Assembly: GCA_003942085.1 (NCBI GenBank)
Contig: DQIQ01000002.1
Coordinates: forward strand, 898-64,897
Reading direction: 5' to 3'
DNA: 64,000 bases
DNA from: Thermoplasmata archaeon
Lineage (GTDB): Archaea > Thermoplasmatota > E2 > DHVEG-1
Made by a program: the position numbers and the translations under genes. Every line of letters begins with the position of its first letter. Position 1 is the stretch's first letter. Under the pieces are notes generated by a model. It was not told the origin of the DNA, did not search any database, and saw nothing but the letters and a program-made list of their open reading frames with translations. Of this stretch, positions 16,320 to 35,226 are shown in pieces.

Positions 16320-19300
16320 CTATGATTCTTTTAAATAAGAAACCAACTTTTTTTCTGTCATTTCCTCAATCATGGGAAGTATCTGTTTATCCTTGAACCC
16401 TCGTTGTTGAATAGCACTGCTCGGACAGGCGCTCACACACGTCCCGCACCCTTGGCACAGTCCCTCGTTGATCTTTGCATGAATCACGGTTTTTCCATCC
16501 TTTTTTTCTTCGACCCGTTCGATCGCGTTATACGGACACACCGAGATACAAATGCTGCACCCGCTGCAGAGATCTTCATCAACAAAAGCGACATTGGGCT
16601 CTGCCTTTAATGTAGGTTTACACAAGATGGTCGCAGCCCGCGCAGCCGCAGCCTGCGCCTGATAAATCGACTCATTGATGAACTTGGGGACATGACAGTT
16701 CCCAGCAACGAACACCCCGCGTGTCGAAAAATCGACAGGCCGAAGCTTCACATGCGCCTCAAGGAAAAATCCGTCATCGTTCACTGGGACCTTCAATAGT
16801 TTCCCGATCGCCGGGTTATCCAGATTGGGTTGCAGCCCTGTTGAAAGAATCAGATGATCTGCTGGTATCTTCAGATACTCCCCAAGCATCGGCTCATGGA
16901 CTTTTACCACCAGTCCGTTCTTCGATTCAAGCTCCGGTTTCTTCTCAGGGTCGTACTGGAGGAACATGACTCCTTTTTCCCTCGCGTCCTTATAGAACCG
17001 TTCTTTGAAACCATACGTCATTAAATCCCGATAGAGGACAAATACCTCGGATCGCGGGTTCAACTCTTTTATCTTGAGAGCGTTTTTTACCGCCTGCATG
17101 CAACAAATCCTGCTACAGTACGGTCGTTTCTCATCACGGCATTCCACACACTGGATCATGACAAATGTTTCACCGTCGACAATATCCTCTTTGGTGCTTT
17201 CAGAGAGAACCTTCTCAAGCTCCGATTGTGTCAGCACGCGCGGGTCTTTGCCATAATGATAGGTGTGTGGTGTGTACTCATCTGCACCGACCGTCACCAC
17301 GATCACCCCATGAGAAAACGGTATCATTCCGGTCGGGGTCTGGATATCAGACTCGTAACTCCCGACATAACCTTTTAAGGTTTTCACCTGCGAGCTGGTA
17401 TGCACTTTTATCAGAGGATGCTTCGAAACCTTCTCTGTTATTTCCTTAAGCAGTCGGGGGATGTCAATACCGTCAACGGTATAGTACACTTTATGTAAGT
17501 AACCACCAAGCCTTTTTTCTTTTTCGACCAACACCGTCTCGTATCCTTGATCGGCAAGAGACAAAGCCGCTGTCATGCCTGCGATCCCACCACCGATGAC
17601 CAAGGCTTTTTGTAAAACAGGGATCTCAGCTTCTTGAATCGGTTGTAAAAACCTGGTCTTTGCCACCGTCATCGCAATCAGTTGCTTTGCTTTTTCCGTG
17701 GCTTTGGCAGGTTCATCCATGTGGACCCAGGAGCATTGCTCCCGGATGTTCGTCATCTCGAGCAGATACGGATTGAGCCCTGCATCCCGCAGGCTTTTCT
17801 GGAACAGCGGCTCATGCGTCCGAGGTGTGCACGCTGCAATCAAGATACGGTTCAAATCATGTTTCTTGATCGCGTCCACAATCTTCTTCTGCGTATCCTC
17901 AGAACAGGTATAGATGTTCGACTCGACAAAAGCGACATCCTCCAGTGATTTTACATATTCCACGACAGCAGGGACATCCACATAGCCGCCGATGTTGATC
18001 CCGCAATGGCAGAGAAACACGCCAATGCGAGGCTTCTGCGCAGACACATCCTTCTCTGCTGGATACTTTTTTTCTGTAACAAGCGTGCCCCGTGAGTCCT
18101 TCAACAGCGCCGCTGCGTTGGCTGCGGCTGCAGACGCCTGCATCACCGACTCTGGGATCGCCTGCGGTTCCAGGAATGAGCCTGCAACAAAAATCCCTGG
18201 TTTGATGACCACGGGATCATCCGCACTCGTCCGCACATAATTAAACTCATTGACGTCAAAACCAAGGGTATCCATCAGCTCGCTATGTCGTTCACCAGCA
18301 CCACACAATCCGACAGAAAGGACCACAAGGTTGTAGGTTTCCTCTTTGAACTCTCCCTTATCATCCTCGTATTTTATTCTCAGATCCCTTGTTTTAGGGT
18401 CTTCAGTAATCTCAGAGATCCGTGACCGAACATACCGCAGTCCTTGTTCTTTTTTCGCCCGATTGATGTATTTATCGAAATCCTTGCCATACGAACGAAC
18501 ATCGATGTAGAACACGGTCGGCTCGATATCGGACGCATGCTCCTTGGCAATGACCGCTTCTTTTGCGGTGTACATACAGCACATCGCTGAGCAATAATCA
18601 TGGTTTACAGAGGCATCCCGGGAACCCACACAATGCACCCAGGCGACCTTTATCGGATGCTTCTGGTCACTCGGCCGCAGGATCTTGCCCTGCGTCGGAC
18701 CAGATGCTGATAAGACCCGCTCAAACTCCACACTCGTGAGCACATTCTTGTATTTCTTATAACCAAACTCTGGTTTTACCACAGGATCGAACGGTGGGGA
18801 ACCAGCAGCGATAATCACTGCACCAACATGAAACAAGAGATGCTCTGGTTTCTGCTCATGGTTAATCGCACCTGATTTGCATTCTTTGACACAGCGCATG
18901 CAATCGACACAGCCGCGATGCTTCCCATCGCCTTCCTTGTCGATCACATACGCGTTCGGGATCGCCTGCGGGAACGGCTTGTAGATAGCCTTGCGTTTCA
19001 CCAACCCGTACTCAAACGCATTGGGCAAAGAAACAGGACAGACTGCCTCACAGCTCCCGCACGATGTGCATTTCTCCAGGTCGATAAAGCGCGGCTTCTT
19101 TAGCACCTTTACCGTAAAATTCCCTGGGTTCCCTTCGATACCTTCTACCACGACATTAGTAAGAATCTCGATGTTTTGATGACGGGCACAATCCACGAGC
19201 TTTGGGGACAAGATGCACATGGAACAATCATTGGTCGGGAATGTCTTGTCAAGCTGCGCCATGACGCCACCGATTGTCGGTGATTTCTCAAGGACGTAGA

Positions 19301-19400
19301 CTTTGTATCCCATGTCAGCAAGATCAAGAGCAGCCTGCACCCCGGTGATGCCACCACCGACCACAGCAATCGCTCCGATTGTCTCAGATTTTTTTGTCAT
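16320..19400 (-). CDS. tandem (double) HdrA-like flavoprotein / Fe-S protein
   Basis: 1026-aa ORF in two halves. Residues ~1-455 carry VVGGGITG, DKTFPTNDCSMC, CTSCGSCEAVCP and YCSAMCCMYTAKEA. Residues ~457-1026 open with the HdrA N-terminal-domain signature PRIGVFLCHCGINIGGYV, followed by VIGGGIAG and YCSRICCMQAVKNA. The protein ends in CSGCSICISVCP and CQGCGTCVSACP. Confidence 0.85.
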   Translation of the reverse strand: MTKKSETIGAIAVVGGGITGVQAALDLADMGYKVYVLEKSPTIGGVMAQLDKTFPTNDCSMCILSPKLVDCARHQNIEILTNVVVEGIEGNPGNFTVKVLKKPRFIDLEKCTSCGSCEAVCPVSLPNAFEYGLVKRKAIYKPFPQAIPNAYVIDKEGDGKHRGCVDCMRCVKECKSGAINHEQKPEHLLFHVGAVIIAAGSPPFDPVVKPEFGYKKYKNVLTSVEFERVLSASGPTQGKILRPSDQKHPIKVAWVHCVGSRDASVNHDYCSAMCCMYTAKEAVIAKEHASDIEPTVFYIDVRSYGKDFDKYINRAKKEQGLRYVRSRISEITEDPKTRDLRIKYEDDKGEFKEETYNLVVLSVGLCGAGERHSELMDTLGFDVNEFNYVRTSADDPVVIKPGIFVAGSFLEPQAIPESVMQASAAAANAAALLKDSRGTLVTEKKYPAEKDVSAQKPRIGVFLCHCGINIGGYVDVPAVVEYVKSLEDVAFVESNIYTCSEDTQKKIVDAIKKHDLNRILIAACTPRTHEPLFQKSLRDAGLNPYLLEMTNIREQCSWVHMDEPAKATEKAKQLIAMTVAKTRFLQPIQEAEIPVLQKALVIGGGIAGMTAALSLADQGYETVLVEKEKRLGGYLHKVYYTVDGIDIPRLLKEITEKVSKHPLIKVHTSSQVKTLKGYVGSYESDIQTPTGMIPFSHGVIVVTVGADEYTPHTYHYGKDPRVLTQSELEKVLSESTKEDIVDGETFVMIQCVECRDEKRPYCSRICCMQAVKNALKIKELNPRSEVFVLYRDLMTYGFKERFYKDAREKGVMFLQYDPEKKPELESKNGLVVKVHEPMLGEYLKIPADHLILSTGLQPNLDNPAIGKLLKVPVNDDGFFLEAHVKLRPVDFSTRGVFVAGNCHVPKFINESIYQAQAAAARAATILCKPTLKAEPNVAFVDEDLCSGCSICISVCPYNAIERVEEKKDGKTVIHAKINEGLCQGCGTCVSACPSSAIQQRGFKDKQILPMIEEMTEKKLVSYLKES

Positions 19401-19407
19401 AGGTCAT

Positions 19408-20073
19408 CTATTTTGTTGTCCGATTGTATCCTTCTTTCATCGCGATGTTCTTAATAGCATTCATCAATTTTGGTATCTCGACTCCTTGTGGACATTGGGT
19501 GAAACACCGATGATGAGACGAGCAGATCTCAACAAACTTGTTGCAGAACACTGGCTCTTTCATCCCCAGGAGCACGTTCTTGATTACTCTGCGTGGTGAA
19601 TACAGTGCATCAAGCTCCCGCTCAGGGCAACCCGCTGTACACGTACCGCAGGAGAAACACTCATAGAGGTCCTTACCAGCCTTATCCTGTGTTATTTTAT
19701 ATTTGAAATCCAAATCAAGGTACTTCTTGGTCTGCTCCCCGGTGACATACTCAACGTGTTCCTCAAGGAGCCGGGCGTCCCGCACCGCGTTCATGACTTC
19801 TTTTACATTGACCTTCTGCGGACATTTCTCTAAGCATCGATAATGAGCGCTGCAGATCCAGAAGAACTCACTGGTCAGCACCTCTTCTTTTAATCCGAGG
19901 AGTGCTTTCCGGATGACGACCCGCGCGTTCCACTCTGGTTTGACGTCCATCTCAGGACAACGGGCGGTACACGCACCACATGCGAAGCATTTGAGGATGC
20001 CTTCGCCACCCTCTTCTTTAGCTATCTGAAACTTGAATCCAGGGTCAATCTTGCGGGAGTCGATCACATCCAT
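19408..20073 (-). CDS. internally duplicated HdrC-like Fe-S protein
   Basis: 221-aa ORF with two ~105-aa repeats. Each has CxxCxxCxxxCPE (CFACGACTARCPE; CFSCGTCTAGCPE) followed by a degenerate second motif (ICSAHYRCLEKCPQ; ICSSHHRCFTQCPQ). Confidence 0.7.
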   Translation of the reverse strand: MDVIDSRKIDPGFKFQIAKEEGGEGILKCFACGACTARCPEMDVKPEWNARVVIRKALLGLKEEVLTSEFFWICSAHYRCLEKCPQKVNVKEVMNAVRDARLLEEHVEYVTGEQTKKYLDLDFKYKITQDKAGKDLYECFSCGTCTAGCPERELDALYSPRRVIKNVLLGMKEPVFCNKFVEICSSHHRCFTQCPQGVEIPKLMNAIKNIAMKEGYNRTTK

Positions 20074-20074
20074 G

Positions 20075-21196
20075 TTACTTTTCTCCTACCTCCAAGAACT
20101 CATCCTCCCGATAGACGATCATCGGGACTTTCTCGGTCCTGTCCTTGCCGGGGTGATAATCAAACTCCTTCTGAGCATTCTCAGCAGCAGGGATGAACAC
20201 TTCCATAAGCGGAATATTGTTGGGGCACGCCTGTTCGCATAACCCGCACTCCACACAAGAAAGGATCATATGGTTCATCCGCCCGAGCTGAAAGAGCAGC
20301 GCATCGTTCGGCATCTTAAACAACCCTTTGACCTCTGCTCTGCGCAAAAACTTATACGCTTCGGCGTCGAACACTGATGAGTCGAACAGACACTCTTTAC
20401 AGTAACAAATCGGGCACGCCTGCCGGCAGTTATGACAGTTGACGCATTTATCGAAAAACTCAGCGACCTTATCGATCCCTTTGATTCCTTCTTTTTCTTT
20501 GAGGAATAACGCACGTTTCTTGGTCTTTTCGTCACGGATCTCTTTTACTGCTTTCTCCCGGCTTTTCCCTTCTTTTTCATCCTCAAGAGGTAAGTCTTTT
20601 AGGATTTCCTTTCCGACGTCAGAGTGCGCCTCAACAATAATTTCTTTTTCGAAATCAGTGCCGTAGAACCCAAGGATGATATCTGCGTTTGTTGGAATAG
20701 GGTCTTTGCACATCCGACAAACCGAGCGGAAATATTTTTCTGCGTCATCGGATTTCTTTACCCATGCTTCAAGGAGGAAATGCGTAGGTGTTTTCTTCTC
20801 AGGGAACTCCGCATAGGTGTTTAGGGGAAACGTACCTGGGCAGTCGACGCCGATGATCACGATGTTTATGAGATTCGCTTGGTTCAGCTTCACCAGTTCG
20901 ATGAGCGCCCGGATCTGACAGGACCGCATGACGACCCCGATGGGTTTAGCAGGTGGCTGCACTTTCGTCATCTTTGACACCATAGCGGCGGTTGACGCGG
21001 GAAGAATCGGTGCAATAATATCAGCGTGAAGCTTCTTTGGGTCGGAGATCAGCACCGGGAAAGCGACTTTTTTCGACGGAGTGTTCTGCGGGACAAGTAA
21101 CGCCTGGATTTTTCCTGAGGAAAGCAACTGTCTGAAGAACTCGTTGGTCGATCCTATCACGTCATTATCCTTGACTTTGATTACTTTTTGTGTCAT
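20075..21196 (-). CDS. FrhB/FdhB-family (F420/flavin-binding beta-subunit-like) protein with a C-terminal 2x[4Fe-4S] ferredoxin domain
   Basis: I place the start at ATG 21196, which is preceded by GGAGGAGGAAG. The track's 21250 start would overlap mvhD. The FrhB-like segments are IGVVMRSCQIRALIE...IVIIGVDCPGTF and CRMCKDPIPTNADIILGFYG. The C-terminus has CVNCHNCRQACP and CVECGLCEQACP. Confidence 0.6.
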   Translation of the reverse strand: MTQKVIKVKDNDVIGSTNEFFRQLLSSGKIQALLVPQNTPSKKVAFPVLISDPKKLHADIIAPILPASTAAMVSKMTKVQPPAKPIGVVMRSCQIRALIELVKLNQANLINIVIIGVDCPGTFPLNTYAEFPEKKTPTHFLLEAWVKKSDDAEKYFRSVCRMCKDPIPTNADIILGFYGTDFEKEIIVEAHSDVGKEILKDLPLEDEKEGKSREKAVKEIRDEKTKKRALFLKEKEGIKGIDKVAEFFDKCVNCHNCRQACPICYCKECLFDSSVFDAEAYKFLRRAEVKGLFKMPNDALLFQLGRMNHMILSCVECGLCEQACPNNIPLMEVFIPAAENAQKEFDYHPGKDRTEKVPMIVYREDEFLEVGEK

Positions 21197-21212
21197 TTTT
21201 CTTCCTCCTCCC

Positions 21213-21662
21213 TCAGAGATTCCAGTGTTTGGCGATCGGGCTGGGTCCAAGTTTCCTAATCGATTCGGTCATTTCTTTCATCGTATCAGCGAACTTCTGG
21301 CCTTCGGAGGCGGAGATCCATCGCAGCCACACCCGCTCTTTTTCCAAACCTAAGGTACCCAGGATATTTTCGAGAAGCACCATACGGCGTCGCGCCTTAT
21401 AGTTCCCGTCGATGTAATGACAATCACCAGGATGACAGCCGCCGACAAACACCCCGTCGGCACCCTCAAGTAACGCACGAAGAATGTACATGGAATCAAC
21501 AGACCCTGAGCACATGACCCGGATGATCCGGACGTTCGGAGGGTACTGGATCCTGCTGGTCCCAGCTAGGTCAGCCCCTGCGTAACTGCACCAGTTGCAG
21601 AGAAACCCAACGATCCTTGGTTCGAAGTCTTCCTTCTTATGGTCCTTTTTTTCTTCACTCAT
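21213..21662 (-). CDS. mvhD: MvhD-like (methyl-viologen-reducing hydrogenase delta subunit family) protein
   Basis: 149-aa ORF with [19 protein letters not shown]...MCSGSVD...[17 protein letters not shown], the characteristic MvhD/FlpD pattern. Confidence 0.9.
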
Positions 21663-21668
21663 ACCTTC

Positions 21669-24600
21669 TCACTCCAAACACGCATCAATCATAGAGACAA
21701 TCTGACGTTTCGTAAACGTATTCTGCTGCGACGTCCCACTCGGGCAGACCGCTGAGCATGCACCACACCCTTGGCAGAGGATTTCATTGACGATGACGAT
21801 TTTCTTTTCTTCATCAAAACTGATCGCATCATATGGACAGGCCTCAATACAGAGCTGACACCCTGCGCAATTCCGGGAAATCACTCTTGCGATATTCCCA
21901 ATCGTCTCAAGATACTTTTTTGATAGGATGGTGGCAGCACGCGCACCGGTTGCCTTGGCCTGCAGGATTGACTCTTCGATGAACCGTGGGGAATGCGCAA
22001 GACCGCAGAGGAAAATGCCGTCCGCGGAAAAATCAATGGGACGGAGTTTCACATGAGCCTCTGAGTAAAACTCGTCTTCGTTCAATGGGACTTTGAGGAT
22101 CTGGGCAAGAGTCTTGTTCTCCTGTGGGATGATACCAGTACTGAGCACCAATCTATCAGGATGCAAATGCAACGGTCGACCAAGGATTGGATCCATGGTT
22201 TTTACCAAGAGTTTCCCATCCTCGACCGTGACTTTAGGTTCTTCCTTCTCATCGAATCTCACAAAAAGGATCCCTTTCTTCCGAGCCTTCTGGTAAAGAA
22301 AATCTTCGCGGAACCCATACGTTCTGATATCTCGATATAGGACATAGACTGCTGCATCTGGACTTAGTTCTTTTAATCGCAACGCGTTCTTCAACGCCTC
22401 AGAACAGCATACCCTGCTGCAGTACGGATGATCATCGTTTCGTGAACCAACGCATTGGATCATGACGACTTCCTTGAGGTTCTTCACATATGGTTTTTCC
22501 ATGAAAAGATCCTTTTCAAACTCAGTCTGCGTCAGCACATCATCATTTTTCTTGTAATGGAATTCCTTGGGCTCATAAGGCAGCCCACCGGTCGCAACCA
22601 CGATGATGCCGTGCTGAACAACGGTCGGTGTCTTCTCCTTTTTACCTGTAGAAAGGGTCGTGGAGAAGTTCCCGACATAACCAGAGACATGACCTACTGA
22701 TGTGTTAGTGAACACTTGGATCTGGGGATTACTCATAACTTGTTCTCTCGTCTGCGCCAGCAGCTCCTGAGGTTTTTCCCCGGCAGACCCAAGATAGATC
22801 TCTTTTAGATGACCGCCAAGCCCTGGTTCCTTTTCAACCAGGTACACCTGGAAGCCTTGCTCGGCGATGGAAAGTGCAGCAGTCATCCCGGCAATACCAC
22901 CACCGATCACCAGCGCACTAGACAGCACCGGGATCTGCAGATGATGAACCGGATACAGATCAGAGGATTTTGCAACTGCCATTCTTACGGCATCGATTGC
23001 CTTTTCAGTCGCACTCCCTGGAGCACTTTTATGGACCCAGGAGTTCTGATCACGGAGGTTCGCCATCTCAAACAGATGAGGATTCAACCCGGACTGCCGT
23101 AGTGTATCCTGGAACAACGGTTCATGTGTCCGTGGGGTACACGACGCAATAACAACCCGGTTTAACCTTAACTCCTTTATTTTTTCCTTTATTTTCTCTT
23201 GGGAATCCTGCGAACAGGTAAATAACGTATCATCTGAATGGACAACAAAGGGAAGTTTCTTTGCGACCTCGACGACTTTTTTAACATCGACTACACCAGC
23301 GATGTTGATGCCGCAATGACAGACGAACACACCAATGCGAGGGAACTCGGCTTTGATGTCACGCTCCGCAGGATAGGTCTTTTCAACAACCTCAGTTCCA
23401 CGCACGTCCGCAATAGATTTTCCTGCTTCAGCTGCAGCTGCTGATGCCTGGGTGACGCTCTCCGGGATATCTTTTGGTTCGGTGACCGTACCTGAAGCAA
23501 AGATACCTTCGCGTGAGGTAGAAATAGGGGTAAACGTCCCTGTTTCAATAAAACCGTATTCGTTCAAATTGATCTCTAAGGCTTTACTCAGGTGGCCTAA
23601 AGACGCACAGGGCTGCAGCCCGACAGAAAGCACCACCATGTCATACGTTTCGCTTTTGATAAACCCTTTTTCATCGACGTAGCGGATGAGTAGCTCCTTG
23701 GTCTTCCGATCTTGTTCGATCTTGGGGATGCGACATCTCCGGTACACGACCCCGTATTCATGCTCTGCACGGGCGAAATACTTATCAAAATCCTTCCCAA
23801 ACGACCGCATGTCCATATAGTAGATATGAGTCTCTATTCCAGGTTCGTGTTCCTTAGATATAACTGCTTCTTTGGTTGCATACATGCAACAGACCGATGA
23901 GCAATATTTCCGATCGCAGCTTTCATCGCGAGAACCGATGCATTGGAGCCAAGCGATTTTTTTGGGTGGCTTTCCATCGGAGATCCGTTTGATATGTCCC
24001 TTGTAAGGTCCAGAGGCGGAAAGCATCCGTTCGTACTCAATGCTGGTCAGCACGTTCGGATACACCTGGTAACCGTAGCTGTCTGCTTTTGGTGGGGAGT
24101 ACTCGGCAAAACCTGGGGATACGATCACGGCACCGACATCGATAGTCTCAGTTGTTTCCTTCATTTGATGATCGATCGCCTCAGGTCCGCAATACAGGAC
24201 GCACTGCTGACAATCACAACATCCTGCACAGTTCAGGCAACGTTGCGCCTCGCGAACGACCTGATCCTTCGACAATCCCGGGTCAACCTCGATAAACGAT
24301 TTTATCCGCTCTTCAATAGTAAGAAAAGGTGGCTGTTCACGAGCATGGGGGATTCGCAGTGTTTCCTTTGGAATCTCAGCTTTCTTTTGTACTTTTGGTT
24401 CCCGTCCAGCTCGCAGGTCTTCGTGGTTGAAAAATCGATCAATTGATTCTGCTGCGGCATGGCCTGCGCCTATTGCTTCAACTGCGGAGGCAGGACCAGT
24501 CACCGCATCACCACCAGCAAACACACCCTCCTGGGATGTTTGTAAGGTGACTGGATCAGCCTCGATAAACCCTGATTTTGATAATGCGATATTGTTTTCT

Positions 24601-26201
24601 TCCAGCAGTTTGGTATCAAGCTCTTGACCAATGGCAAATATGACATAGTCACAGGGAACATCGTACGCGGAATCAGGGATGGCAACCGGTCGCCTTCGCC
24701 CTGAAGAATCAGGTTCCCCCAGATCCATTTTCACGCACGAAAGACAGGTTTCATTTTCCTTCTTCACAAGCTTTGTGGGAGCGGTCAGATATTTAAACAA
24801 AATGCCTTCTTCCACCGCCTGCTGTATTTCATCCTTATGCGCGGGCATCTCCTTTACAGACCGGCGATAGAGCACGGTTACATCACCACCTAGTCGTTTT
24901 GCGGTCCGTGCTGAATCCATGGCGACATTCCCACCGCCGACCACCAAGATGGTTTTTCCCTTGAAATACTCAGGAGCAATCATGTTCCTGTTCAGCTGTT
25001 TAAGATATTCCACGCCCTCAAGGATGCAGGTATCGGTCCCTGCGCAGCATTCTATCCCTGAGCCACGGGATTTATGTGCACCTATCGCAAGGAGAACTGC
25101 TTTGAATCCTTGTTTTTTCAACTCAGTGACCGAAAAATCCCGTCCGAGCTTCTGATTGTTTTTTATCTCGATTTGTTCGGCTTCGCAGAGAGGATCGATC
25201 TCTTTATGCAGGTATTCCTTTGGTAGCCGATAATCAGGTACCCCGTAATGCAGCATCCCGCCACTGTATTTCTCTGATTCAAAAATAACGGTCTTATACC
25301 CTTTTCTGGCAAGGTCATAAGCTGCGGTCAACCCCGTTGGTCCAGCACCGATGATCGCGACTTTCTGGTCGTTGCCTCTTTTTGTCACATGACTTTGTTT
25401 TCCTTGTTTTTTTTCTGCTTTTATTCTCTGATACTCGGCAAGCGTCTCGGGATGTTCATAAATATAATCAGCGACAAAGCGTCTGATATGGCAGATGGAA
25501 ATCGGCTCTTCGATGTCCTTTCGGTTACAGTCATTTTCACAGGGATGATAACAAATCCTCCCCAGTGACCCTGGGATCGGGATTGTTTCTTTGATGAGTT
25601 CATAGGCCTCGGCGAATTTCTCTTGCGCGGCGAGTGCGACAAACCCATGAGCGTTCAATCCAGCAGGACAAGCGATCCGGCAGGGGGAGGTTCCTTCGTT
25701 TTTCGTAATTGCAAAGATGTTGGGGATCGCCTGCGGAAACGGTTGATAAATCGCTTTATGCGTAGTCAGCCCTTCATCAAACTCAGATCGCATCGTAACA
25801 GGACAGTGCAGGACGCAATCGCCGCACCCGTTACATTTCTTTAGATCGACAAACCGCGGATATTTTTTCAACGTGACATGGAAAGCTCCTACTTCACCAG
25901 CGACATCGGTGACCTCTGCGTTTGTGATAATGGAAATATTCGGATGCCGTCCGGTGTACACCAGTTTTGGTGCAAGGATGCACATCGCACAGTCGTTTGT
26001 GGGAAATGTTTTATCCAGCTGTGTCATCGTGCCACCGATAGATAGCCCGCGGTCGACGATATATACCCTAAATCCAGCATCCGCTAAATCAAGGGAAGAT
26101 TGGATACCAGAGATTCCTCCACCGATGACCAGGACTGATCCATGTTTATGAGCAGATGCGGCCTGATGTTTTTTTTCTTTGGTCATACTCGTAAAACTCA
26201 C
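21669..26201 (-). CDS. giant HdrA-like protein with an inserted GltD/NfnB-like NAD(P)H-FAD module and a second HdrA module (HdrL-like)
   Basis: 1510-aa ORF. HdrA module 1 is VIGGGISG...DKTFPTNDCAMC...CNGCGDCVLHCP...PFPQAIP. A GltD-like insert follows: CRIACPAG...CYHPCENDC, KVAIIGAGPTGLTAAYDLARKG, GGMLHYGVPDYRLPK, ILVVGGGNVAMDSART, GVFAGGD. HdrA module 1 then resumes with YCSSVCCMYATKEA. Next come PRIGVFVCHCGINIAG, VIGGGIAG and YCSRVCCSEALKNA. The C-terminus has CAGCQLCIEACP and CQGCGACSAVCP. The GTG start overlaps the hdrA stop; an alternative ATG lies at 26186. Confidence 0.85.
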   Translation of the reverse strand: MSFTSMTKEKKHQAASAHKHGSVLVIGGGISGIQSSLDLADAGFRVYIVDRGLSIGGTMTQLDKTFPTNDCAMCILAPKLVYTGRHPNISIITNAEVTDVAGEVGAFHVTLKKYPRFVDLKKCNGCGDCVLHCPVTMRSEFDEGLTTHKAIYQPFPQAIPNIFAITKNEGTSPCRIACPAGLNAHGFVALAAQEKFAEAYELIKETIPIPGSLGRICYHPCENDCNRKDIEEPISICHIRRFVADYIYEHPETLAEYQRIKAEKKQGKQSHVTKRGNDQKVAIIGAGPTGLTAAYDLARKGYKTVIFESEKYSGGMLHYGVPDYRLPKEYLHKEIDPLCEAEQIEIKNNQKLGRDFSVTELKKQGFKAVLLAIGAHKSRGSGIECCAGTDTCILEGVEYLKQLNRNMIAPEYFKGKTILVVGGGNVAMDSARTAKRLGGDVTVLYRRSVKEMPAHKDEIQQAVEEGILFKYLTAPTKLVKKENETCLSCVKMDLGEPDSSGRRRPVAIPDSAYDVPCDYVIFAIGQELDTKLLEENNIALSKSGFIEADPVTLQTSQEGVFAGGDAVTGPASAVEAIGAGHAAAESIDRFFNHEDLRAGREPKVQKKAEIPKETLRIPHAREQPPFLTIEERIKSFIEVDPGLSKDQVVREAQRCLNCAGCCDCQQCVLYCGPEAIDHQMKETTETIDVGAVIVSPGFAEYSPPKADSYGYQVYPNVLTSIEYERMLSASGPYKGHIKRISDGKPPKKIAWLQCIGSRDESCDRKYCSSVCCMYATKEAVISKEHEPGIETHIYYMDMRSFGKDFDKYFARAEHEYGVVYRRCRIPKIEQDRKTKELLIRYVDEKGFIKSETYDMVVLSVGLQPCASLGHLSKALEINLNEYGFIETGTFTPISTSREGIFASGTVTEPKDIPESVTQASAAAAEAGKSIADVRGTEVVEKTYPAERDIKAEFPRIGVFVCHCGINIAGVVDVKKVVEVAKKLPFVVHSDDTLFTCSQDSQEKIKEKIKELRLNRVVIASCTPRTHEPLFQDTLRQSGLNPHLFEMANLRDQNSWVHKSAPGSATEKAIDAVRMAVAKSSDLYPVHHLQIPVLSSALVIGGGIAGMTAALSIAEQGFQVYLVEKEPGLGGHLKEIYLGSAGEKPQELLAQTREQVMSNPQIQVFTNTSVGHVSGYVGNFSTTLSTGKKEKTPTVVQHGIIVVATGGLPYEPKEFHYKKNDDVLTQTEFEKDLFMEKPYVKNLKEVVMIQCVGSRNDDHPYCSRVCCSEALKNALRLKELSPDAAVYVLYRDIRTYGFREDFLYQKARKKGILFVRFDEKEEPKVTVEDGKLLVKTMDPILGRPLHLHPDRLVLSTGIIPQENKTLAQILKVPLNEDEFYSEAHVKLRPIDFSADGIFLCGLAHSPRFIEESILQAKATGARAATILSKKYLETIGNIARVISRNCAGCQLCIEACPYDAISFDEEKKIVIVNEILCQGCGACSAVCPSGTSQQNTFTKRQIVSMIDACLE

Positions 26202-28156
26202 ATGATGTCGTCAACCATGTTCAGGAGCTGTTTCTTTGTGAAATTCTTATGAATCGAGGCGTTGCTCGGACAGGCGGCGATACAGCCGCCACAGCCAGCG
26301 CATAAGGCGTCGTTCACCTCAGCGATTCGTTTTCTTTCATTCAAGGTCCGTGCCTCATACGGGCAGACTTCAACGCAGATCCCGCACCCCGTGCAGACGT
26401 CCTCATCGACCATCGCAATCAATGGGTCTATCTCCAGTTCTTCCTGGGATAGGATCGTCGCGGCACGTGACGCTGCCGCACTTGCTTGTGCGACGGTATC
26501 TTGGATATCTTTTGGTGCTTGGCAGCATCCAGCGATGAAAATCCCATTGACAAACGTATCAACAGGGCGAAGCTTCGGATGTGCCTCAAGGAAGAACCCG
26601 TCACCGCTCAACGTCAAATGCAAGAGCCGTGCAAATTCTATTGCATCAACTCGTGGCATCATCGCAGGAACCAGGACAACCAGGTCGGTCTGTATTTCAA
26701 ACAACTTGTTGGTCATCGTATCAAAAATATCGATCTTGAGGTTCTCTTTCATGGTCCGTACCTCAGACGGTTGCCCTCGGAACATGTTGGTATGCAACCC
26801 TCGAACCTTCCGGTAGAACTCCTCGTAGCCTTTCCCAAAGGACCGAACGTCATTGTAGCAGACGTTGATCTCGACATCGTCCCCGAGCTTCTCGCGAAGC
26901 AAGTAGACTTGTTTTAATGCAGTCATGCACCCGATCCTGCAGCACCAGGTACACTGGGTCTCATCACGAGAGCCGACACAGAGGATGAATGTAACGCTCT
27001 TTGGTTTCTGCTGGTTTGACGGCCGCAGGATTTCCCCTTTGGTTGGTCCTGAGGAGCTGATCAATCGCTCCAGCTCTAAGGTAGTGATTACATCAGGTGA
27101 TTGGTCGTAGCCGTACTCATACACCGCGGTGGGGTCCATGATGTCATACCCGGTGGCAACGATTATGGCTCCGACTTTTCGCTCCACGATTTCTTCTTTT
27201 TGATCAAAATTGACTGCCCCAGCTGCACAAGCTTTCTTACAGAGAGGTTCATCCCCGCATTTTCCTTTTGTCAAAAACAGGCATTTCTTGTCGTCGATTA
27301 CGTATTTCAAGGGTACCGCTTGAGGGAACGGCATGTAGGCTGCCCCGCGCTTTCCCATGCCTTGATTAAACTCACTGATCAGTCGGTCTTTGAGTCGACA
27401 GGCGCTGGCGCAATCACCACAACCGGTACATTTGTCAACATCAACGTATCGTGGTTTTTTTCTTATCTTGACGGTGTAGTTCCCGATACTTCCTTCAAGA
27501 CTGGCGACTTCTGAGTAACTGAGCAGTTCGATGTTCTTATGGTTCGCCACTTCCATCATCTTTGGAGTGAGGATACAGGAGGAACAATCAAGGGTCGGGA
27601 AGGTTTTATCCAGTTGCGCCATGTGTCCGCCGATACTGGGTTCTCGCTCCACTAGATGGACTTTGAACCCATCGTTAGCAAGATCAAGAGCGGTTTGAAT
27701 GCCCGCGATCCCACCTCCGATCACTAAGGCTTCCGGGATGACTTTCAAGGTCGATGTTTTCAATGGCTCAAGACTGAGAGCTTTGGATACTGCACTACGA
27801 ACAAGATACTTTGCTTTCTCCGTCGCTTGCTCTTTGTTGCTATGTGCCCACGAACATTGTTCACGAATGTTCGAGATCTCAACTCGGTAGGGATTCACAC
27901 CGCCGTCATTGGCGACCCGTCGGAATGTCTGTTCATGCATCCGCGGTGAACATGAGGCTATCACGACACCATCGAGTTTGAATTCCTTGATCGTGTCTTT
28001 GATGAGGGTTGCGCCCACGTCTGAGCACATATACTTGTAGTGTTTTGCGACTACTACGCCGTTCAGATGAGATGCGTACTCGGAAAGTGCTTCGATGTCG
28101 ACGGTTTGTGCGATGTTGATGCCGCAATGACAGACGAACACACCGATGCGACGCAT
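26198..28156 (-). CDS. hdrA: heterodisulfide reductase subunit A (canonical length)
   Basis: 652-aa ORF with MRRIGVFVCHCGINIAQ, VIGGGIAG...DKTFPTLDCSSC, CTGCGDCASAC, and C-terminal CTGCGICVEVCP and CAGCGGCIAACP. Confidence 0.92.
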   Translation of the reverse strand: MRRIGVFVCHCGINIAQTVDIEALSEYASHLNGVVVAKHYKYMCSDVGATLIKDTIKEFKLDGVVIASCSPRMHEQTFRRVANDGGVNPYRVEISNIREQCSWAHSNKEQATEKAKYLVRSAVSKALSLEPLKTSTLKVIPEALVIGGGIAGIQTALDLANDGFKVHLVEREPSIGGHMAQLDKTFPTLDCSSCILTPKMMEVANHKNIELLSYSEVASLEGSIGNYTVKIRKKPRYVDVDKCTGCGDCASACRLKDRLISEFNQGMGKRGAAYMPFPQAVPLKYVIDDKKCLFLTKGKCGDEPLCKKACAAGAVNFDQKEEIVERKVGAIIVATGYDIMDPTAVYEYGYDQSPDVITTLELERLISSSGPTKGEILRPSNQQKPKSVTFILCVGSRDETQCTWCCRIGCMTALKQVYLLREKLGDDVEINVCYNDVRSFGKGYEEFYRKVRGLHTNMFRGQPSEVRTMKENLKIDIFDTMTNKLFEIQTDLVVLVPAMMPRVDAIEFARLLHLTLSGDGFFLEAHPKLRPVDTFVNGIFIAGCCQAPKDIQDTVAQASAAASRAATILSQEELEIDPLIAMVDEDVCTGCGICVEVCPYEARTLNERKRIAEVNDALCAGCGGCIAACPSNASIHKNFTKKQLLNMVDDIM

Positions 28157-29035
28157 CTATTTCGCGCCTCCCTCTTGGAGTTTTTGAACGGGACTGAGGT
28201 TCAACTCAAGTCCTAGCTTCTCACTACTGATCCCCATCGCTAAACCGAGCAACTGGGTCAGATACAGGACCGGGACATCGAGCTTTGCAGCAACGGTCTC
28301 CCCTGCTTTAGTTTGTCTACTGTCAAACATCTTATGACACCATGGACAGACATCAACCATCGCTTGGATTCCTTGCTCTTGGATCGCTTGGAGCTTCTGC
28401 CCAGTCTTTGTCAACGCAGACTCCGGAAGATTCGTAAGCAAGGGTGCGCCACAGCAATCAAGCTTCTGAGGATAGTTTACAGGTTCGGCACCCAAAACCT
28501 TCAGGATCGCTTCGATCTTCTGCGGGTTCTCAGAGTCATCGATACGACCGATTTCACTGGGACGAAGAATATGACATCCGTAATGTGCTGCGATCTTTAA
28601 TCCGTGTAATGGTTTTTTCACCTGTTCCTTTATCTTTTCGATCCCTATTTCATCATATAATAGGTCGACGGTATGAGCGATGTGCCGTTTCTCAGTGTAT
28701 TTCAGATCCTCAGCAGCAAGCATCCCGTTGATGCGTTCCATCATCGCTGGGTTTTTTTCAAGGATATATTGGCATTCGGTTAACGCAAGATGGCACATCG
28801 CGCAGGGGACGAAGAGGTCAAGATGATGCTTCTCGGCGATAGCCAGGTTTCGCGCAGAAAGATACAACGTAAGAAGTTGGTTGACACTTTTCATGGGCTC
28901 TCCGCAACAGGAAAAACCCTCCACATCGACAAGTTCGACCCCTAGCAAAGGTAGTGTTTCTCTGATCGAAAGCTCATAGGCATACTGCTCCGTGGGCATC
29001 AGACAACCGGGAAATAGCGCATATTTCTTTTTCAT
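28157..29035 (-). CDS. hdrB: heterodisulfide reductase subunit B (two CCG domains)
   Basis: 292-aa ORF starting YALFPGCLMP, with CCG motifs FSCCGEP and LDCCGAPLL. It abuts the hdrA start. Confidence 0.92.
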   Translation of the reverse strand: MKKKYALFPGCLMPTEQYAYELSIRETLPLLGVELVDVEGFSCCGEPMKSVNQLLTLYLSARNLAIAEKHHLDLFVPCAMCHLALTECQYILEKNPAMMERINGMLAAEDLKYTEKRHIAHTVDLLYDEIGIEKIKEQVKKPLHGLKIAAHYGCHILRPSEIGRIDDSENPQKIEAILKVLGAEPVNYPQKLDCCGAPLLTNLPESALTKTGQKLQAIQEQGIQAMVDVCPWCHKMFDSRQTKAGETVAAKLDVPVLYLTQLLGLAMGISSEKLGLELNLSPVQKLQEGGAK

Positions 29036-29040
29036 TATGT

Positions 29041-29568
29041 CTAGACCTTTTCCATCGCGATTTTCATGATTCCTGCCTGGAACTTGGCAACATCAGTAGG
29101 TTTTGAAAGAGGAGGAAGGGAAAGTTCGTCTCGTTTCACCGGTTTATTTGATCGGGTCGTGGTCTGTTGGATGTCCTGTATGAGACCTATCGAAAGGATA
29201 GATTGGAGCATTCCAGTATATTTTCCCGGGATTTGTTTTCCGCTTGCTACCGCCATATTTTTCAGCGCAAACAAGATTTCGACTGGTGCGACGCGTTGCG
29301 GGCAGCGCTCCCTGCATTTCAGGCAGGTCATGCACGTCCAGATGACATCGGCGTTCACCAGTTCGTTGATGAGCCCTCTTTTAAGAAGCGCGACGATCTT
29401 ATGCGGCTCAAGCTCAAGGAGTTTGTGTGCTTCACAGCCTGAGGTACATTTGCCGCATTGAAAACAATACTCTGAGATTTCGTCCTGGAGCTTTGTGAGT
29501 CGATCATTGAGTTCCTTTCTCAGATCTGATTGCGGTTCCCCCATAGAAGTCAAGTCGATGATGCTCAT
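29041..29568 (-). CDS. hdrC: heterodisulfide reductase subunit C
   Basis: 175-aa ORF with CFQCGKCTSGCE and WTCMTCLKCRERCPQ. It lies 5 nt upstream of hdrB. Confidence 0.9.
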   Translation of the reverse strand: MSIIDLTSMGEPQSDLRKELNDRLTKLQDEISEYCFQCGKCTSGCEAHKLLELEPHKIVALLKRGLINELVNADVIWTCMTCLKCRERCPQRVAPVEILFALKNMAVASGKQIPGKYTGMLQSILSIGLIQDIQQTTTRSNKPVKRDELSLPPLSKPTDVAKFQAGIMKIAMEKV

Positions 29569-31105: not shown

Positions 31106-31215
31106 GTTATCTCTCGGAGAAACAGCGAGAAATGAAAAAACTTAAATCAGAATATCCGTTCACCGTTCTCGGAACCATCTGATCATCAGAGATCTATTTC
31201 CTTAGATTAACAAAG

Positions 31216-35214: not shown

Positions 35215-35226
35215 TTACTATTCATT

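What the first reader, a model, noticed from the sequence alone, without database searches (positions are those of the whole stretch)
21669..26201. 1510-aa HdrA with a complete GltD/NfnB-like NAD(P)H module inserted into its flavin domain
The three HdrA paralogues in this window can be compared directly. Canonical HdrA and the 1026-aa protein have a short Cys-rich linker between PFPQA(V/I)P and (V/H)G A(I/V)I(V/I). The 1510-aa protein instead carries ~500 residues there (about nt 24160-25700). The insert starts with the GltD N-terminal Fe-S motif (CRIACPAG...CYHPCENDC). It continues with two Rossmann folds (KVAIIGAGPTG...GGMLHYGVPDYRLPK and ILVVGGGNVAMDS) and GVFAGGD. It ends with an extra CLNCAGCCDCQQCVLYC cluster. 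GltD/NfnB/SudA-type modules bind NAD(P)H and FAD. Large HdrA homologues with such a module have, to my recollection, been called HdrL in sulfate-reducing bacteria. An archaeal version embedded in an hdrCBA operon and followed by another full HdrA module suggests direct NAD(P)H coupling to a bifurcating HdrA flavin.
Basis: partly seen in the sequence, partly recalled or inferred. Interest (0 to 1): 0.65.

Follow-up and report, generated by a model that had tools for sequence, protein, structure and literature searches.

The report
NADPH-module-bearing HdrA (HdrL type), Thermoplasmata
This archaeal gene encodes a giant heterodisulfide-reductase A subunit with a complete NADPH-binding flavin/iron-sulfur cassette spliced into its ferredoxin arm; the design is real but already described (HdrL in sulfate reducers, "type III HdrA" in methane-oxidising archaea), so this is a new member of a known, biochemically untested family.

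Summary
ORF 21669-26201 (-) is intact. Residues ~168-660 are a complete GltD/NfnB-type module spliced into an HdrA.

Three details need correcting:
- The insertion sits in HdrA's inserted ferredoxin domain, not in the flavin fold proper.
- The terminal Cys run is not an extra cluster. C655/C658 complete the cassette's own cluster. C661-C671 are the native second ferredoxin motif.
- The downstream HdrA module is not full. The protein is a fused asymmetric pseudo-dimer.

The cassette is circularly permuted relative to NfnB. It is closest to the non-bifurcating GltD-like domain of StnC/NfnABC. It carries an NADPH-type signature (GxGxxA plus YRR).

The design is already in the literature: HdrL (2009), ANME-1 HdrA9-11 (2022) and type III HdrA (2025). 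Full-length homologues occur in more than 600 species-level genomes, usually followed by mvhD.

Most likely role: the NADPH port of a soluble, bifurcating Hdr complex. No member has been tested biochemically.

Side finding: sister Thermoplasmatota carry a NuoE/F/G-type module in the same domain, which splits HdrA over two polypeptides.

Verdict: new member of a known kind, modest interest.

The parts
21669..26201 (-). HdrL-type HdrA gene. It has 1510 codons from the GTG; the likely true start is ATG at 26186, giving 1505 aa.
25701..26186 (-). Module 1, first part (residues 6-167). Contains the FAD Rossmann motif GGGISG, C74 (equivalent to M. wolfeii Cys197), and the first CxxCxxCxxxC of the inserted ferredoxin domain (C123/126/129/133).
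   Evidence: Aligns to 5odc_A residues 146-290. The cysteines are invariant in 196 homologues.
24222..25700 (-). Inserted GltD/NfnB-type cassette (residues ~168-660), circularly permuted, of the StnC/NfnABC type.
   Evidence: The AF2 model has pLDDT 87.8. Foldseek gives TMq 0.83 to 9bov_A and 0.80 to 8oh5_C, against 0.72 to NfnB.
25455..25688 (-). Cassette Fe-S domain (Fer4_20, residues 172-249) with C174, C178, C217, C221 and C225. R240 occupies the position of the NfnB Glu ligand and of StnC Lys170.
24420..25364 (-). Cassette FAD and NADPH Rossmann domains (residues 280-594). Motifs: GAGPTG (FAD), R325, G422GGNVA427 followed by Y445RR447 (NADPH-type), and GVFAGGD.
24222..24350 (-). Relocated 'N-terminal' segment of the cassette (residues 618-660), ...ERIKSFIEVDPGLSKDQVVREAQRC655LNC658. 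It supplies the two cysteines that precede PCxxxCP in canonical NfnB/GltD.
   Evidence: Aligns to P. furiosus NfnI-L residues 8-46 and T. maritima NfnB residues 13-42, and to the equivalent C-terminal position in StnC, 9bov and 9n5u. pLDDT is about 95.
23367..24221 (-). Module 1, second part (residues 661-945). Contains the native second ferredoxin motif C661/664/667/671, the rest of the flavin domain with the [4Fe-4S] cysteines C754/767/771/772, and E724 and K777 (equivalent to M. wolfeii E356 and K409).
   Evidence: Aligns to 5odc_A residues 290-510. Conservation. Residue roles from PMC12054007.
22932..23348 (-). HdrA N-terminal Fe-S domain belonging to module 2 (residues 952-1090; C961, C963, C996, C1021).
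   Evidence: Aligns to 5odc_A residues 2-181. The cysteines are invariant.
21897..22931 (-). Module 2 flavin domain (residues 1091-1435). It lacks the inserted ferredoxin domain and Cys197. It keeps C1250/1261/1265/1266, E1229 and K1271.
21672..21896 (-). C-terminal 2x[4Fe-4S] ferredoxin domain (residues 1436-1510).
   Evidence: Pfam Fer4_7 at 1444-1489. Aligns to 5odc_A up to residue 648.
29041..29568 (-). hdrC, the first gene of the operon.
28157..29035 (-). hdrB, with two CCG domains.
26198..28156 (-). Canonical four-domain hdrA (652 aa).
21213..21662 (-). mvhD (FlpD). It starts 6 nt downstream of the HdrL gene.
   Evidence: mvhD lies directly downstream in 56 of the 68 homologous loci that have room for it.
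20075..21196 (-). FrhB/FdhB-like flavo-Fe-S protein (373 aa by the public gene call; 391 aa from the TTG start).
19408..20073 (-). Double HdrC-like Fe-S protein (221 aa).
16320..19400 (-). Insert-less paralogue of HdrL: a fused HdrA-HdrA protein of 1026 aa.
   Evidence: 50-56% identical to HdrL on both sides of the insert.

Best explanation
What it is. The gene encodes an HdrL-type HdrA. In the published schemes this is type III combined with type II, i.e. class 'A9-TRX-C'. Two HdrA flavin modules are fused into an asymmetric pseudo-heterodimer.
- Module 1 has Cys197 and the ferredoxin arm, but no N- or C-terminal domain.
- Module 2 has the N-terminal and C-terminal Fe-S domains, but no Cys197 and no ferredoxin arm.
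- The ferredoxin arm of module 1 is interrupted by a complete, circularly permuted GltD-type cassette (FAD, NADPH site, two [4Fe-4S] clusters). It is the kind found in StnC/NfnABC.

Inferred mechanism.
1. NADPH delivers a hydride to the cassette FAD.
2. That FAD acts as a non-bifurcating two-electron to one-electron converter, as in GltD and StnC.
3. Single electrons pass through the cassette's two clusters into the two clusters of the HdrA ferredoxin arm. In Mvh-Hdr this is the exit route to free ferredoxin; here the cassette occupies it.
4. They continue through the N-domain cluster (completed by C74) to the HdrA flavin.
5. There, bifurcation or confurcation couples them to a disulfide at HdrBC and to a low-potential partner reached through the C-terminal ferredoxin domain, MvhD and the FrhB-like protein.

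The reaction is probably reversible.

Shown versus inferred. The architecture, cofactor-binding residues, cassette type and gene partnership are shown. The electron path, its direction, the NADPH specificity and the identity of the disulfide are inferred.
For: Architecture.
- Four HdrA segments map onto 5odc_A.
- The cassette lies between M. wolfeii residues 290 and 290.
- The insert-less paralogue defines the boundaries.

Cofactor residues. All Fe-S cysteines, K777, E724, E1229 and R325 are invariant across 196 homologues.

Cassette type.
- Best sequence and fold matches are NfnABC and StnC: 344-358 bits against 251-257 for NfnB, and TMq 0.80-0.83 over ~500-530 columns against 0.70-0.72 over ~450.
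- It shares their circular permutation.
- The proximal-cluster ligand position is K, R or H in 196 of 196 homologues and never Glu. StnC uses Lys170 there, and its FAD was shown to be non-bifurcating (PMC10482914).

NADPH.
- GxGxxA is present in 193 of 196 homologues.
- YRR follows strand beta-2, as in the NADPH-specific NfnB and StnC.
- About 18% of homologues carry C[LV]E at that spot, the classical NADH signature, so the position behaves as a specificity determinant.

Partners and context.
- The operon hdrCBA-hdrL-mvhD-frhB-like-hdrC-like-hdrAA is tightly spaced.
- mvhD lies directly downstream in 56 of 68 homologous loci.
- The same gene set (HdrABC, FeS protein, MvhD, HdrL) is detected as protein in S. 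fumaroxidans under sulfate (PMC5947623).
- NADP-malic enzyme and an NAD(P)-linked group 3b hydrogenase lie next door.

Independent support.
- Published structure prediction places the GltD domain so that it blocks the ferredoxin site (PMC12054007).
- Sister genomes carry a different pyridine-nucleotide module in the same domain.
Against: - No member of the family has been purified or assayed.
- The route through the ferredoxin arm is the low-potential exit in Mvh-Hdr. Using it as a mid-potential entry requires retuned clusters, which cannot be seen from sequence.
- HdrB is found near the gene in only 31 of 80 homologous loci, so a disulfide need not be the universal partner.
- R325, the arginine that contacts flavin N5 in bifurcating NfnB, is conserved, so a bifurcating cassette flavin is not excluded.
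- PMC12054007 argues for NADH.
- The disulfide substrate of a non-methanogenic Thermoplasmata is unknown.
- I could not obtain model coordinates, so inter-cluster distances were not checked.
Confidence: 0.6

Rival explanations
1. The cassette flavin is a second, NfnB-like bifurcating site. The protein would then hold two bifurcation sites joined through their low-potential Fe-S arms. Chadwick et al. 2022 suggested this for ANME-1 HdrA9-11.
For: - The cassette has 34-36% structure-based identity to NfnB.
- R325, equivalent to T. maritima NfnB R187 (the flavin-N5 arginine), is invariant.
- The idea is published (PMC9012536).
Against: - No NfnA-type partner ([2Fe-2S] plus a-FAD high-potential branch) is present in the operon.
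- The Glu ligand of the NfnB proximal cluster is replaced by K, R or H in all 196 homologues.
- The closest relatives are the StnC/NfnABC GltD-like domains. There the same arginine is present, yet the flavin does not bifurcate.
Confidence: 0.12
2. The cassette uses NADH rather than NADPH, as proposed for type III HdrA in PMC12054007 on the basis of a GXGXXG motif.
For: - The claim is published.
- The first Rossmann motif here is GAGPTG (GXGXXG).
- About 18% of family members carry an NADH-type C[LV]E signature.
Against: - In this fold the GXGXXG motif binds FAD.
- The dinucleotide-substrate motif is G422GGNVA427 (GXGXXA). It is followed by Y445RR447, exactly as in the NADPH-specific P. furiosus and T. 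maritima NfnB and in StnC.
- The window protein belongs to the YRR group.
Confidence: 0.15
3. HdrL works without HdrBC. Together with MvhD and the FrhB/FdhB-like protein it would form an NAD(P)H:ferredoxin (or F420, or formate-linked) oxidoreductase. The adjacent hdrCBA genes would encode a separate enzyme.
For: - mvhD is the near-universal neighbour (56 of 68 loci), whereas HdrB is near in only 31 of 80.
- In Desulfobacterium and Desulfurivibrio, hdrL sits with fdhAB or dsr genes rather than hdrBC.
Against: - In this window and its close relatives, hdrCBA and hdrL are contiguous with 0-11 nt gaps.
- In S. fumaroxidans the HdrABC and HdrL products appear together.
- Flavin-based bifurcation at HdrA needs a high-potential acceptor.
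Confidence: 0.25
4. The long ORF is an assembly or annotation artefact: a mis-join of an hdrA gene and a gltD-like gene.
For: None found. The window comes from a metagenome-assembled genome.
Against: - The same ~1500-aa architecture is recovered at 98-100% coverage in many independent assemblies and in genomes of cultured bacteria.
- All cofactor residues on both sides of both junctions are invariant.
- The junctions are in frame and structurally sensible.
Confidence: 0.01

Closest known systems
HdrL of sulfate-reducing and syntrophic bacteria (Desulfobacterium autotrophicum HdrL1-3; Syntrophobacter fumaroxidans Sfum_0824)
   Same: - It is a large HdrA fused with a glutamate-synthase-small-subunit-like NAD(P)H module and is followed by mvhD.
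- In S. fumaroxidans the cluster hdrABC + FeS (FdhB-like) + mvhD + hdrL has the same gene content as this operon.
- Full-length homologues at 45-49% identity occur in Syntrophobacterales, Desulfobacteraceae and Smithella.
   Different: - The host here is archaeal.
- There is no selenocysteine.
- An extra insert-less HdrA-HdrA paralogue and an HdrC-like gene sit in the same operon.
- I could not align directly to the named bacterial proteins.
Type III HdrA (classes A9, A9-TRX-C, A10) of PMC12054007, equivalent to HdrA9-11 of ANME-1 in PMC9012536
   Same: - A ~500-aa GltD/NfnB-like insertion lies inside the inserted ferredoxin domain.
- K409 and E356 are kept.
- A version with an added C-terminal thioredoxin-reductase-like domain exists.
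- The proposed role is a direct NAD(P)H link.
   Different: - Those proteins were catalogued only in methane- and alkane-metabolising archaea (nine sequences).
- This one is from Thermoplasmata, and no methanogenesis genes are in view.
- Its signature points to NADPH rather than NADH.
GltD-like domain of StnC / NfnA in the Bfu-type transhydrogenases StnABC and NfnABC (PDB 8oh5, 9bov, 9n5u)
   Same: - These are the best sequence and fold matches.
- They share the same circular permutation (PCxxxCP first, EAxRCLxC last).
- A Lys/Arg-type residue sits at the proximal-cluster ligand position.
- They carry the NADPH motif.
   Different: There the cassette is inserted into a NuoG/HydA-like subunit and feeds a NuoEF-type bifurcating core. 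Here it is inserted into HdrA.
NfnB of NfnAB (PDB 4yry/4ylf, 5jca)
   Same: Same fold, FAD and NADPH sites, two [4Fe-4S] clusters and the flavin-N5 arginine.
   Different: - NfnB has the canonical segment order.
- It has a Glu ligand on the proximal cluster.
- It needs NfnA.
- None of these three features is found here.
Fused HdrA-HdrA proteins (type II; HdrA3/4 of ANME; HdrA of the Moorella MetFV-HdrABC-MvhD complex)
   Same: Two flavin modules lie in one chain, with complementary presence of Cys197 and the N-terminal domain. This suggests a built-in heterodimer.
   Different: - The order is reversed. Here the Cys197-bearing module comes first and the N-terminal domain lies between the two modules.
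- A cassette is inserted in addition.

Membership tests
HdrA (flavin-based bifurcating subunit of soluble heterodisulfide reductase) | Thioredoxin-reductase-like FAD domain homologous to structurally characterised HdrA | tested here: met
   phmmer against 5odc_A gives E 1.5e-186 in four collinear segments. Two such domains are present.
HdrA (flavin-based bifurcating subunit of soluble heterodisulfide reductase) | The FAD-tuning residues Lys409 and Glu356 (M. wolfeii numbering) | tested here: met
   K777 and E724 in module 1; K1271 and E1229 in module 2. K777, E724 and E1229 are invariant; K1271 is present in 170 of 196 homologues. The residue roles come from PMC12054007 and PMC6405883.
HdrA (flavin-based bifurcating subunit of soluble heterodisulfide reductase) | The full four-domain set per protomer (N-terminal Fe-S domain, flavin domain with a cluster, inserted ferredoxin, C-terminal ferredoxin), with Cys197 donated in trans | tested here: not met
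   Each accessory domain occurs only once across the two modules. C74 (Cys197) is present only in module 1. This fits a fused asymmetric dimer, not the canonical homodimer.
HdrA (flavin-based bifurcating subunit of soluble heterodisulfide reductase) | NCBIfam equivalog score for methanogen HdrA or HdrA2 | tested here: not met
   962.7 bits against a cut-off of 1100 (HdrA2); 702 against 1400 (HdrA).
HdrA (flavin-based bifurcating subunit of soluble heterodisulfide reductase) | Heterodisulfide- and ferredoxin-linked bifurcating activity | not testable with these tools
   This requires biochemistry.
HdrL / type III HdrA | A GltD/NfnB-like module of about 500 aa inserted within the inserted ferredoxin domain of an HdrA | tested here: met
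HdrL / type III HdrA | The mvhD gene immediately downstream | tested here: met
   mvhD lies at 21213-21662, 6 nt after the stop codon. The same holds in 56 of 68 homologous loci.
HdrL / type III HdrA | Direct sequence relatedness to the named founders (D. autotrophicum HdrL1-3, ANME-1 HdrA9) | not tested
The relationship is inferred from the published descriptions and from 45-49% identical full-length homologues in Desulfobacteraceae and Syntrophobacterales.
NfnB (bifurcating subunit of NfnAB) | GltD-type fold with FAD, an NADPH site and two [4Fe-4S] clusters | tested here: met
   E 1e-73 to 1e-75; TMq 0.70-0.72.
NfnB (bifurcating subunit of NfnAB) | Glutamate ligand on the flavin-proximal [4Fe-4S] cluster | tested here: not met
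   The residue here is R240. Across the family it is K in 116, R in 69 and H in 11 homologues, with no Glu in 196.
NfnB (bifurcating subunit of NfnAB) | An NfnA partner supplying the high-potential branch | tested here: not met
   No NfnA-like gene is present in the operon. The only PyrK-like domain nearby belongs to the hydrogenase beta/gamma fusion.
NfnB (bifurcating subunit of NfnAB) | Arginine hydrogen-bonded to flavin N5 | tested here: inconclusive
   R325 is conserved. The same residue exists in non-bifurcating StnC without the hydrogen bond.
GltD-like cassette of StnC/NfnABC (Bfu family) | Permuted segment order, with the EAxRCLxC segment at the C-terminal end | tested here: met
   The full-length structural alignment covers 499-530 columns.
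GltD-like cassette of StnC/NfnABC (Bfu family) | Host is a NuoG/HydA-like BfuA subunit associated with a NuoEF-type core | tested here: not met
   The host here is HdrA, and no NuoE or NuoF gene is in the window.

The most novel reading that the evidence does not exclude
The ferredoxin arm of this HdrA lineage may act as an exchangeable port for pyridine-nucleotide modules. The window carries an NADPH-type GltD cassette there. Sister Thermoplasmatota have the rest of the operon at 88-96% identity and an HdrL core at 77% identity, yet carry a NuoE-NuoF-NuoG(N), Bfu-type NADH/FMN module in the same domain. That module cuts the HdrA flavin domain into two polypeptides.

If so, the branch that serves as the low-potential exit to ferredoxin in methanogen Hdr has been converted into the mid-potential entry. 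The wiring polarity of an HdrA bifurcation site would then be reversed or re-routed. In the Bfu variant, two different bifurcation machines would be hard-wired in series.
Probability: 0.3. Interest if true: 0.6.

Novelty: new member of a known kind. Interest (0 to 1): 0.3.

Why it matters
HdrA-based complexes are central to energy conservation in anaerobes. How they take in electrons from donors other than H2, formate or F420H2 is still untested for this class.

The HdrL design is very widespread. It gave more than 600 hits among species-representative genomes across many bacterial phyla, plus Thermoplasmatota, Asgard archaea and ANME-1. It is abundant in at least one proteome. No complex has been characterised.

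The points added here give concrete, testable handles for whoever purifies one:
- the StnC-type permuted cassette with Lys/Arg rather than Glu at the cluster ligand;
- the NADPH-versus-NADH signature polymorphism;
- the insert-less paralogue in the same operon;
- the natural module swap in sister genomes.

The window's gene itself adds no new category.

Tried and rejected
Attempts that led nowhere.
- Pereira et al. 2011 (PMC3119410) is not held, so I could not check its HdrL description.
- No DNA was available for the JGI contig that carries the identical protein.
- The sequences of D. autotrophicum HdrL and ANME-1 HdrA9 could not be fetched, so orthology to the named founders rests on descriptions and on homologues from the same clades.
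- Structure prediction returns no coordinates, so cluster-to-cluster distances and the C74-to-N-domain contact could not be measured. For that reason I did not spend the second structure job.

Checks I chose not to run.
- I did not build a formal phylogeny of the cassette against GltD, NfnB, SudA and StnC, because the reference sequences were not retrievable. I used bit-score and TM-score ranking plus the shared permutation instead.
- A whole-library HMM count would not separate this architecture from ordinary HdrA and GltD hits, so I skipped it.

Ideas rejected.
- Mis-join or artefact: rejected because the architecture recurs in many independent assemblies.
- ANME-1 origin of the window: the identical protein is labelled Thermoplasmata, and no methanogenesis genes are present in the window.
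- 'Extra' terminal cluster: the Cys run is composite.

Literature coverage. Searches for a description of the NuoEFG-split variant found only the functional analogy with BamBCDEFGHI, which has separate subunits. That is absence of evidence within an incomplete library.

Full report
**Observation.** The minus-strand ORF 21669-26201 is open for 1510 codons, starting from a GTG that overlaps the stop codon of the upstream hdrA. Public gene calls of the identical protein start at Met6, giving 1505 aa. Pfam places a Fer4_20 domain at residues 172-249 and a full Pyr_redox_2 domain at 280-580, set among HdrA-type FAD and ferredoxin hits. NCBIfam's 566-residue 'NAD(P)-binding protein' model PRK12771 covers residues 166-690 at 511.5 bits, and glutamate-synthase small-subunit models follow. 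Against PDB sequences the protein matches HdrA of M. wolfeii (5odc_A) at E 1.5e-186 in four collinear pieces. The insert matches NfnABC/StnC, NfnB, GltD and DPD in that order.

**Boundaries and anatomy.** The alignment to 5odc_A maps the protein as follows:
- residues 23-167 onto M. wolfeii HdrA 146-290;
- residues 658-877 onto 290-510;
- residues 952-1131 onto 2-181;
- residues 1327-1507 onto 465-648.

The foreign segment therefore sits exactly between the two CxxCxxCxxxC motifs of HdrA's inserted ferredoxin domain. That domain is itself an insertion in the flavin domain.

The 1026-aa protein encoded four genes downstream is an insert-less paralogue. Its residues 9-155 match HdrL 21-167 (56% identity) and its residues 163-1016 match HdrL 660-1510 (50% identity). 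This fixes the insertion at residues ~168-660, nt 24222-25700.

Both proteins are fusions of two HdrA flavin modules:
- Module 1 carries C74, the equivalent of M. wolfeii Cys197, and the ferredoxin arm. It has no N- or C-terminal domain.
[quoted passage not shown] It lacks Cys197 and the ferredoxin arm.

This is the complementarity that Chadwick et al. read as a built-in heterodimer, here in the reverse order.

**The cassette.** The run RC655LNC658AGC661CDC664QQC667VLYC671 is composite.
- C661, C664, C667 and C671 align with the native HdrA motif CIECGLCAKVC.
- The preceding ~40 residues (ERIKSFIEVDPGLSKDQVVREAQRCLNC) align with the N-terminal residues 8-46 of P. furiosus NfnI-L and 13-42 of T. 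maritima NfnB.
- The body of the cassette (172-594) aligns with NfnB 44/50-459/473.

The cassette is thus circularly permuted relative to NfnB and GltD. PCxxxCP comes first, and the two cysteines that normally precede it come last.

The same order is seen in StnC (8oh5_C residues 99-576), in the NfnA subunits of NfnABC (9bov_A, 9n5u_A) and in PRK12771.

An AlphaFold2 model of residues 160-680 is confident (pLDDT 87.8, pTM 0.88), and the relocated helix scores about 95. Foldseek ranks the matches as follows:
- 9bov_A, TMq 0.83 over 516 columns;
- 9n5u_A, TMq 0.80;
- 8oh5_C, TMq 0.80;
- NfnB, TMq 0.70-0.72 over about 450 columns;
- GltD, about 0.70;
- DPD, about 0.67.

A permuted cassette whose two ends jointly build one cluster is what one would expect of a unit that can be dropped into a loop of an Fe-S domain (inference).

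**Conserved residues.** I aligned 196 full-length homologues.
- Every predicted Fe-S cysteine is invariant.
- K777 (equivalent to K409) and R325 are invariant in that alignment. R325 corresponds to the arginine that contacts flavin N5 in T. maritima NfnB.
- E724 and E1229 (equivalent to E356) are invariant in the 11-sequence alignment.
- K1271 is present in 170 of 196.
- At the position of the NfnB glutamate that ligates the flavin-proximal cluster, the family has K (116), R (69, including this protein) or H (11). It never has Glu.

StnC has Lys170 at that position. Its K170R variant keeps half the activity, and its flavin was shown not to bifurcate even though the arginine is present (PMC10482914). 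This favours a non-bifurcating, GltD-like two-electron to one-electron converter.

The substrate Rossmann motif is G422GGNVA427 (GxGxxA in 193 of 196), followed after strand beta-2 by Y445RR447. The NADPH-specific NfnB and StnC have the same arrangement. About 18% of homologues, including Desulfotruncus arcticus, carry C[LV]E at that spot. By the classical rule, basic residues there bind the 2'-phosphate and an acidic residue binds the ribose hydroxyls. This is established knowledge from glutathione-reductase-type Rossmann folds. On that rule the window's protein is NADPH-type, and the family contains NADH-type members. The GXGXXG argument for NADH in PMC12054007 most likely refers to the FAD motif (GAGPTG here).

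**Context.** The gene is fourth in a tightly spaced minus-strand operon:
- hdrC and hdrB;
- hdrA (652 aa, canonical);
- hdrL;
- mvhD;
- an FrhB/FdhB-like flavo-Fe-S protein;
- a double HdrC-like protein;
- the 1026-aa HdrA-HdrA fusion;
- OsmC.

On the other strand, transcribed divergently, lie an NADP-malic-enzyme-like gene and a group 3b (sulfhydrogenase-type, NAD(P)-linked) [NiFe]-hydrogenase with a fused beta/gamma subunit and its protease.

The rest of the window is archaeal housekeeping plus a C25 peptidase. No methanogenesis genes are present. The identical protein is labelled Thermoplasmata archaeon.

**Distribution.** Full-length homologues (98-100% coverage) run from 89% down to about 56% identity in Thermoplasmatota. 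They continue at 42-57% in bacteria. A scan of one genome per species returned at least 600 hits. The best 80 are nearly all full length. They come from:
- Desulfobacterota (Syntrophobacterales, Smithella, Desulfobacteraceae);
- Bacillota, Chloroflexota, Acidobacteriota, Planctomycetota and other bacterial phyla;
- Thermoplasmatota and two Asgard lineages.

mvhD lies directly downstream in 56 of the 68 loci with room for it. HdrB is near in 31 of 80 loci and an FrhB-like gene in 21 of 80. In a neighbour-joining tree the window's protein sits in a Thermoplasmatota clade, with Sumerlaeota sequences close by.

**What is already known.**
- Strittmatter et al. 2009 defined HdrL in Desulfobacterium autotrophicum as a heterodisulfide reductase/glutamate synthase fusion with an NADH site, always followed by mvhD.
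- Sedano-Nunez et al. 2018 found the HdrABC/HdrL cluster of S. fumaroxidans (hdrABC, an FdhB-like FeS protein, MvhD, HdrL) abundant under sulfate.
- Chadwick et al. [quoted passage not shown] They proposed an NADPH link.
- A 2025 survey named this 'type III HdrA', including a class with an extra C-terminal thioredoxin-reductase domain. It predicted that the GltD domain blocks the ferredoxin site and feeds the arm's clusters.

I found no paper describing the Thermoplasmata members, the permutation, the ligand-position pattern or the YRR/CLE polymorphism. The searchable library is incomplete.

**Mechanism.** Shown:
- the architecture;
- the cofactor ligands;
- the cassette type;
- the partnership with mvhD.

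Inferred:
1. NADPH reduces the cassette FAD.
2. Single electrons pass through the cassette's two clusters into the two clusters of the ferredoxin arm.
3. They continue via the N-domain cluster (completed by C74) to HdrA flavin.
4. There they are bifurcated or confurcated with a disulfide at HdrBC and with a low-potential partner reached through the C-terminal ferredoxin domain, MvhD and the FrhB-like protein.

The main difficulty is that this arm is the low-potential exit in Mvh-Hdr. The rivals are a second bifurcating flavin, NADH instead of NADPH, and an HdrBC-independent enzyme. They are weighed in their own sections.

**Side finding.** In L010 (uncultured archaeon LFW-68_2) the operon is 88-96% identical to the window, but hdrL is replaced by three ORFs:
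- HdrL residues 1-140 fused to a NuoE-like [2Fe-2S] domain;
- a NuoF/HydB-like FMN protein;
- a NuoG/HydA-type [2Fe-2S]/Fe-S N-terminus fused to HdrL residues 664-1510 (77% identity).

About 50 protein clusters of the same ~1081-aa form exist, all labelled Thermoplasmata or Thermoplasmatota. The arrangement recurs in a complete 1.82-Mb chromosome, CP070712.1. A different pyridine-nucleotide module thus occupies the same domain in sister lineages and splits the HdrA flavin domain over two chains. The nearest described analogy is the pairing of an HdrA-type module with BamGHI in class II benzoyl-CoA reductase. I regard this as the most interesting lead from the session. It lies outside the window.

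**Verdict.** The gene is a new member of a known, uncharacterised family, and interest is modest.

Noticed in passing
L010:6420-12541 (CABMCU010000120.1) and L081:6137-12246 (CP070712.1): In sister Thermoplasmatota the hdrL position holds three ORFs. The first fuses the HdrA N-part to a NuoE-like domain. The second is NuoF/HydB-like. The third fuses a NuoG/HydA-type N-terminus to the rest of HdrL (77% identical to the window's protein). A Bfu-type NADH/FMN module therefore replaces the GltD cassette in the same ferredoxin domain and splits the HdrA flavin domain over two polypeptides. About 50 protein clusters of this form exist. My literature searches found no description of it.
   Followed up: partly
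window 16320-19400 (-): The 1026-aa protein is an insert-less paralogue of the 1510-aa protein (50-56% identical on both sides of the insertion). It shows the same complementary loss of domains between its two HdrA modules. The operon thus encodes three HdrA forms but only one HdrB.
   Followed up: yes
window 29756-35712 (+): Divergent from the hdr operon lie an NADP-malic-enzyme-like gene, a group 3b (sulfhydrogenase-type, NAD(P)-linked) [NiFe]-hydrogenase with beta and gamma subunits fused into one 647-aa protein, the delta and alpha subunits, and a HycI-type protease. This is an NADP(H)-centred neighbourhood. The ORFs listed for the small and large subunits overlap (33156-33920 and 33718-35214), so the true start of the large subunit is probably further downstream.
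   Followed up: partly
family alignment of 196 homologues; window residues 445-447 (nt 24861-24869): The coenzyme-specificity position after strand beta-2 of the cassette is YRR in about 81% of homologues and C[LV]E in about 18%, scattered across phyla. Desulfotruncus arcticus and one Thermoplasmatota protein have the C[LV]E form. This suggests repeated NADPH/NADH switching within the family.
   Followed up: partly
window 19408-21250 (-): An FrhB/FdhB-like protein has only the C-terminal FrhB domain plus ferredoxin motifs. A 221-aa double HdrC-like protein with no adjacent HdrB follows mvhD. Their cofactors and roles are unknown. An FdhB-like gene is also part of the bacterial HdrL clusters.
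   Followed up: no
window 56675-58603 (+): A 642-aa peptidase of family C25 (gingipain-like) is encoded here. Enzymes of this type have been linked, to my recollection, to protein-degrading sediment Thermoplasmata (MBG-D). This hints at the organism's lifestyle.
   Followed up: no
window 26186-26201 (-): The first in-frame start of the long ORF is a GTG that overlaps the ATG-TGA end of hdrA. Public annotations use the ATG five codons downstream. No obvious Shine-Dalgarno sequence precedes either start.
   Followed up: partly
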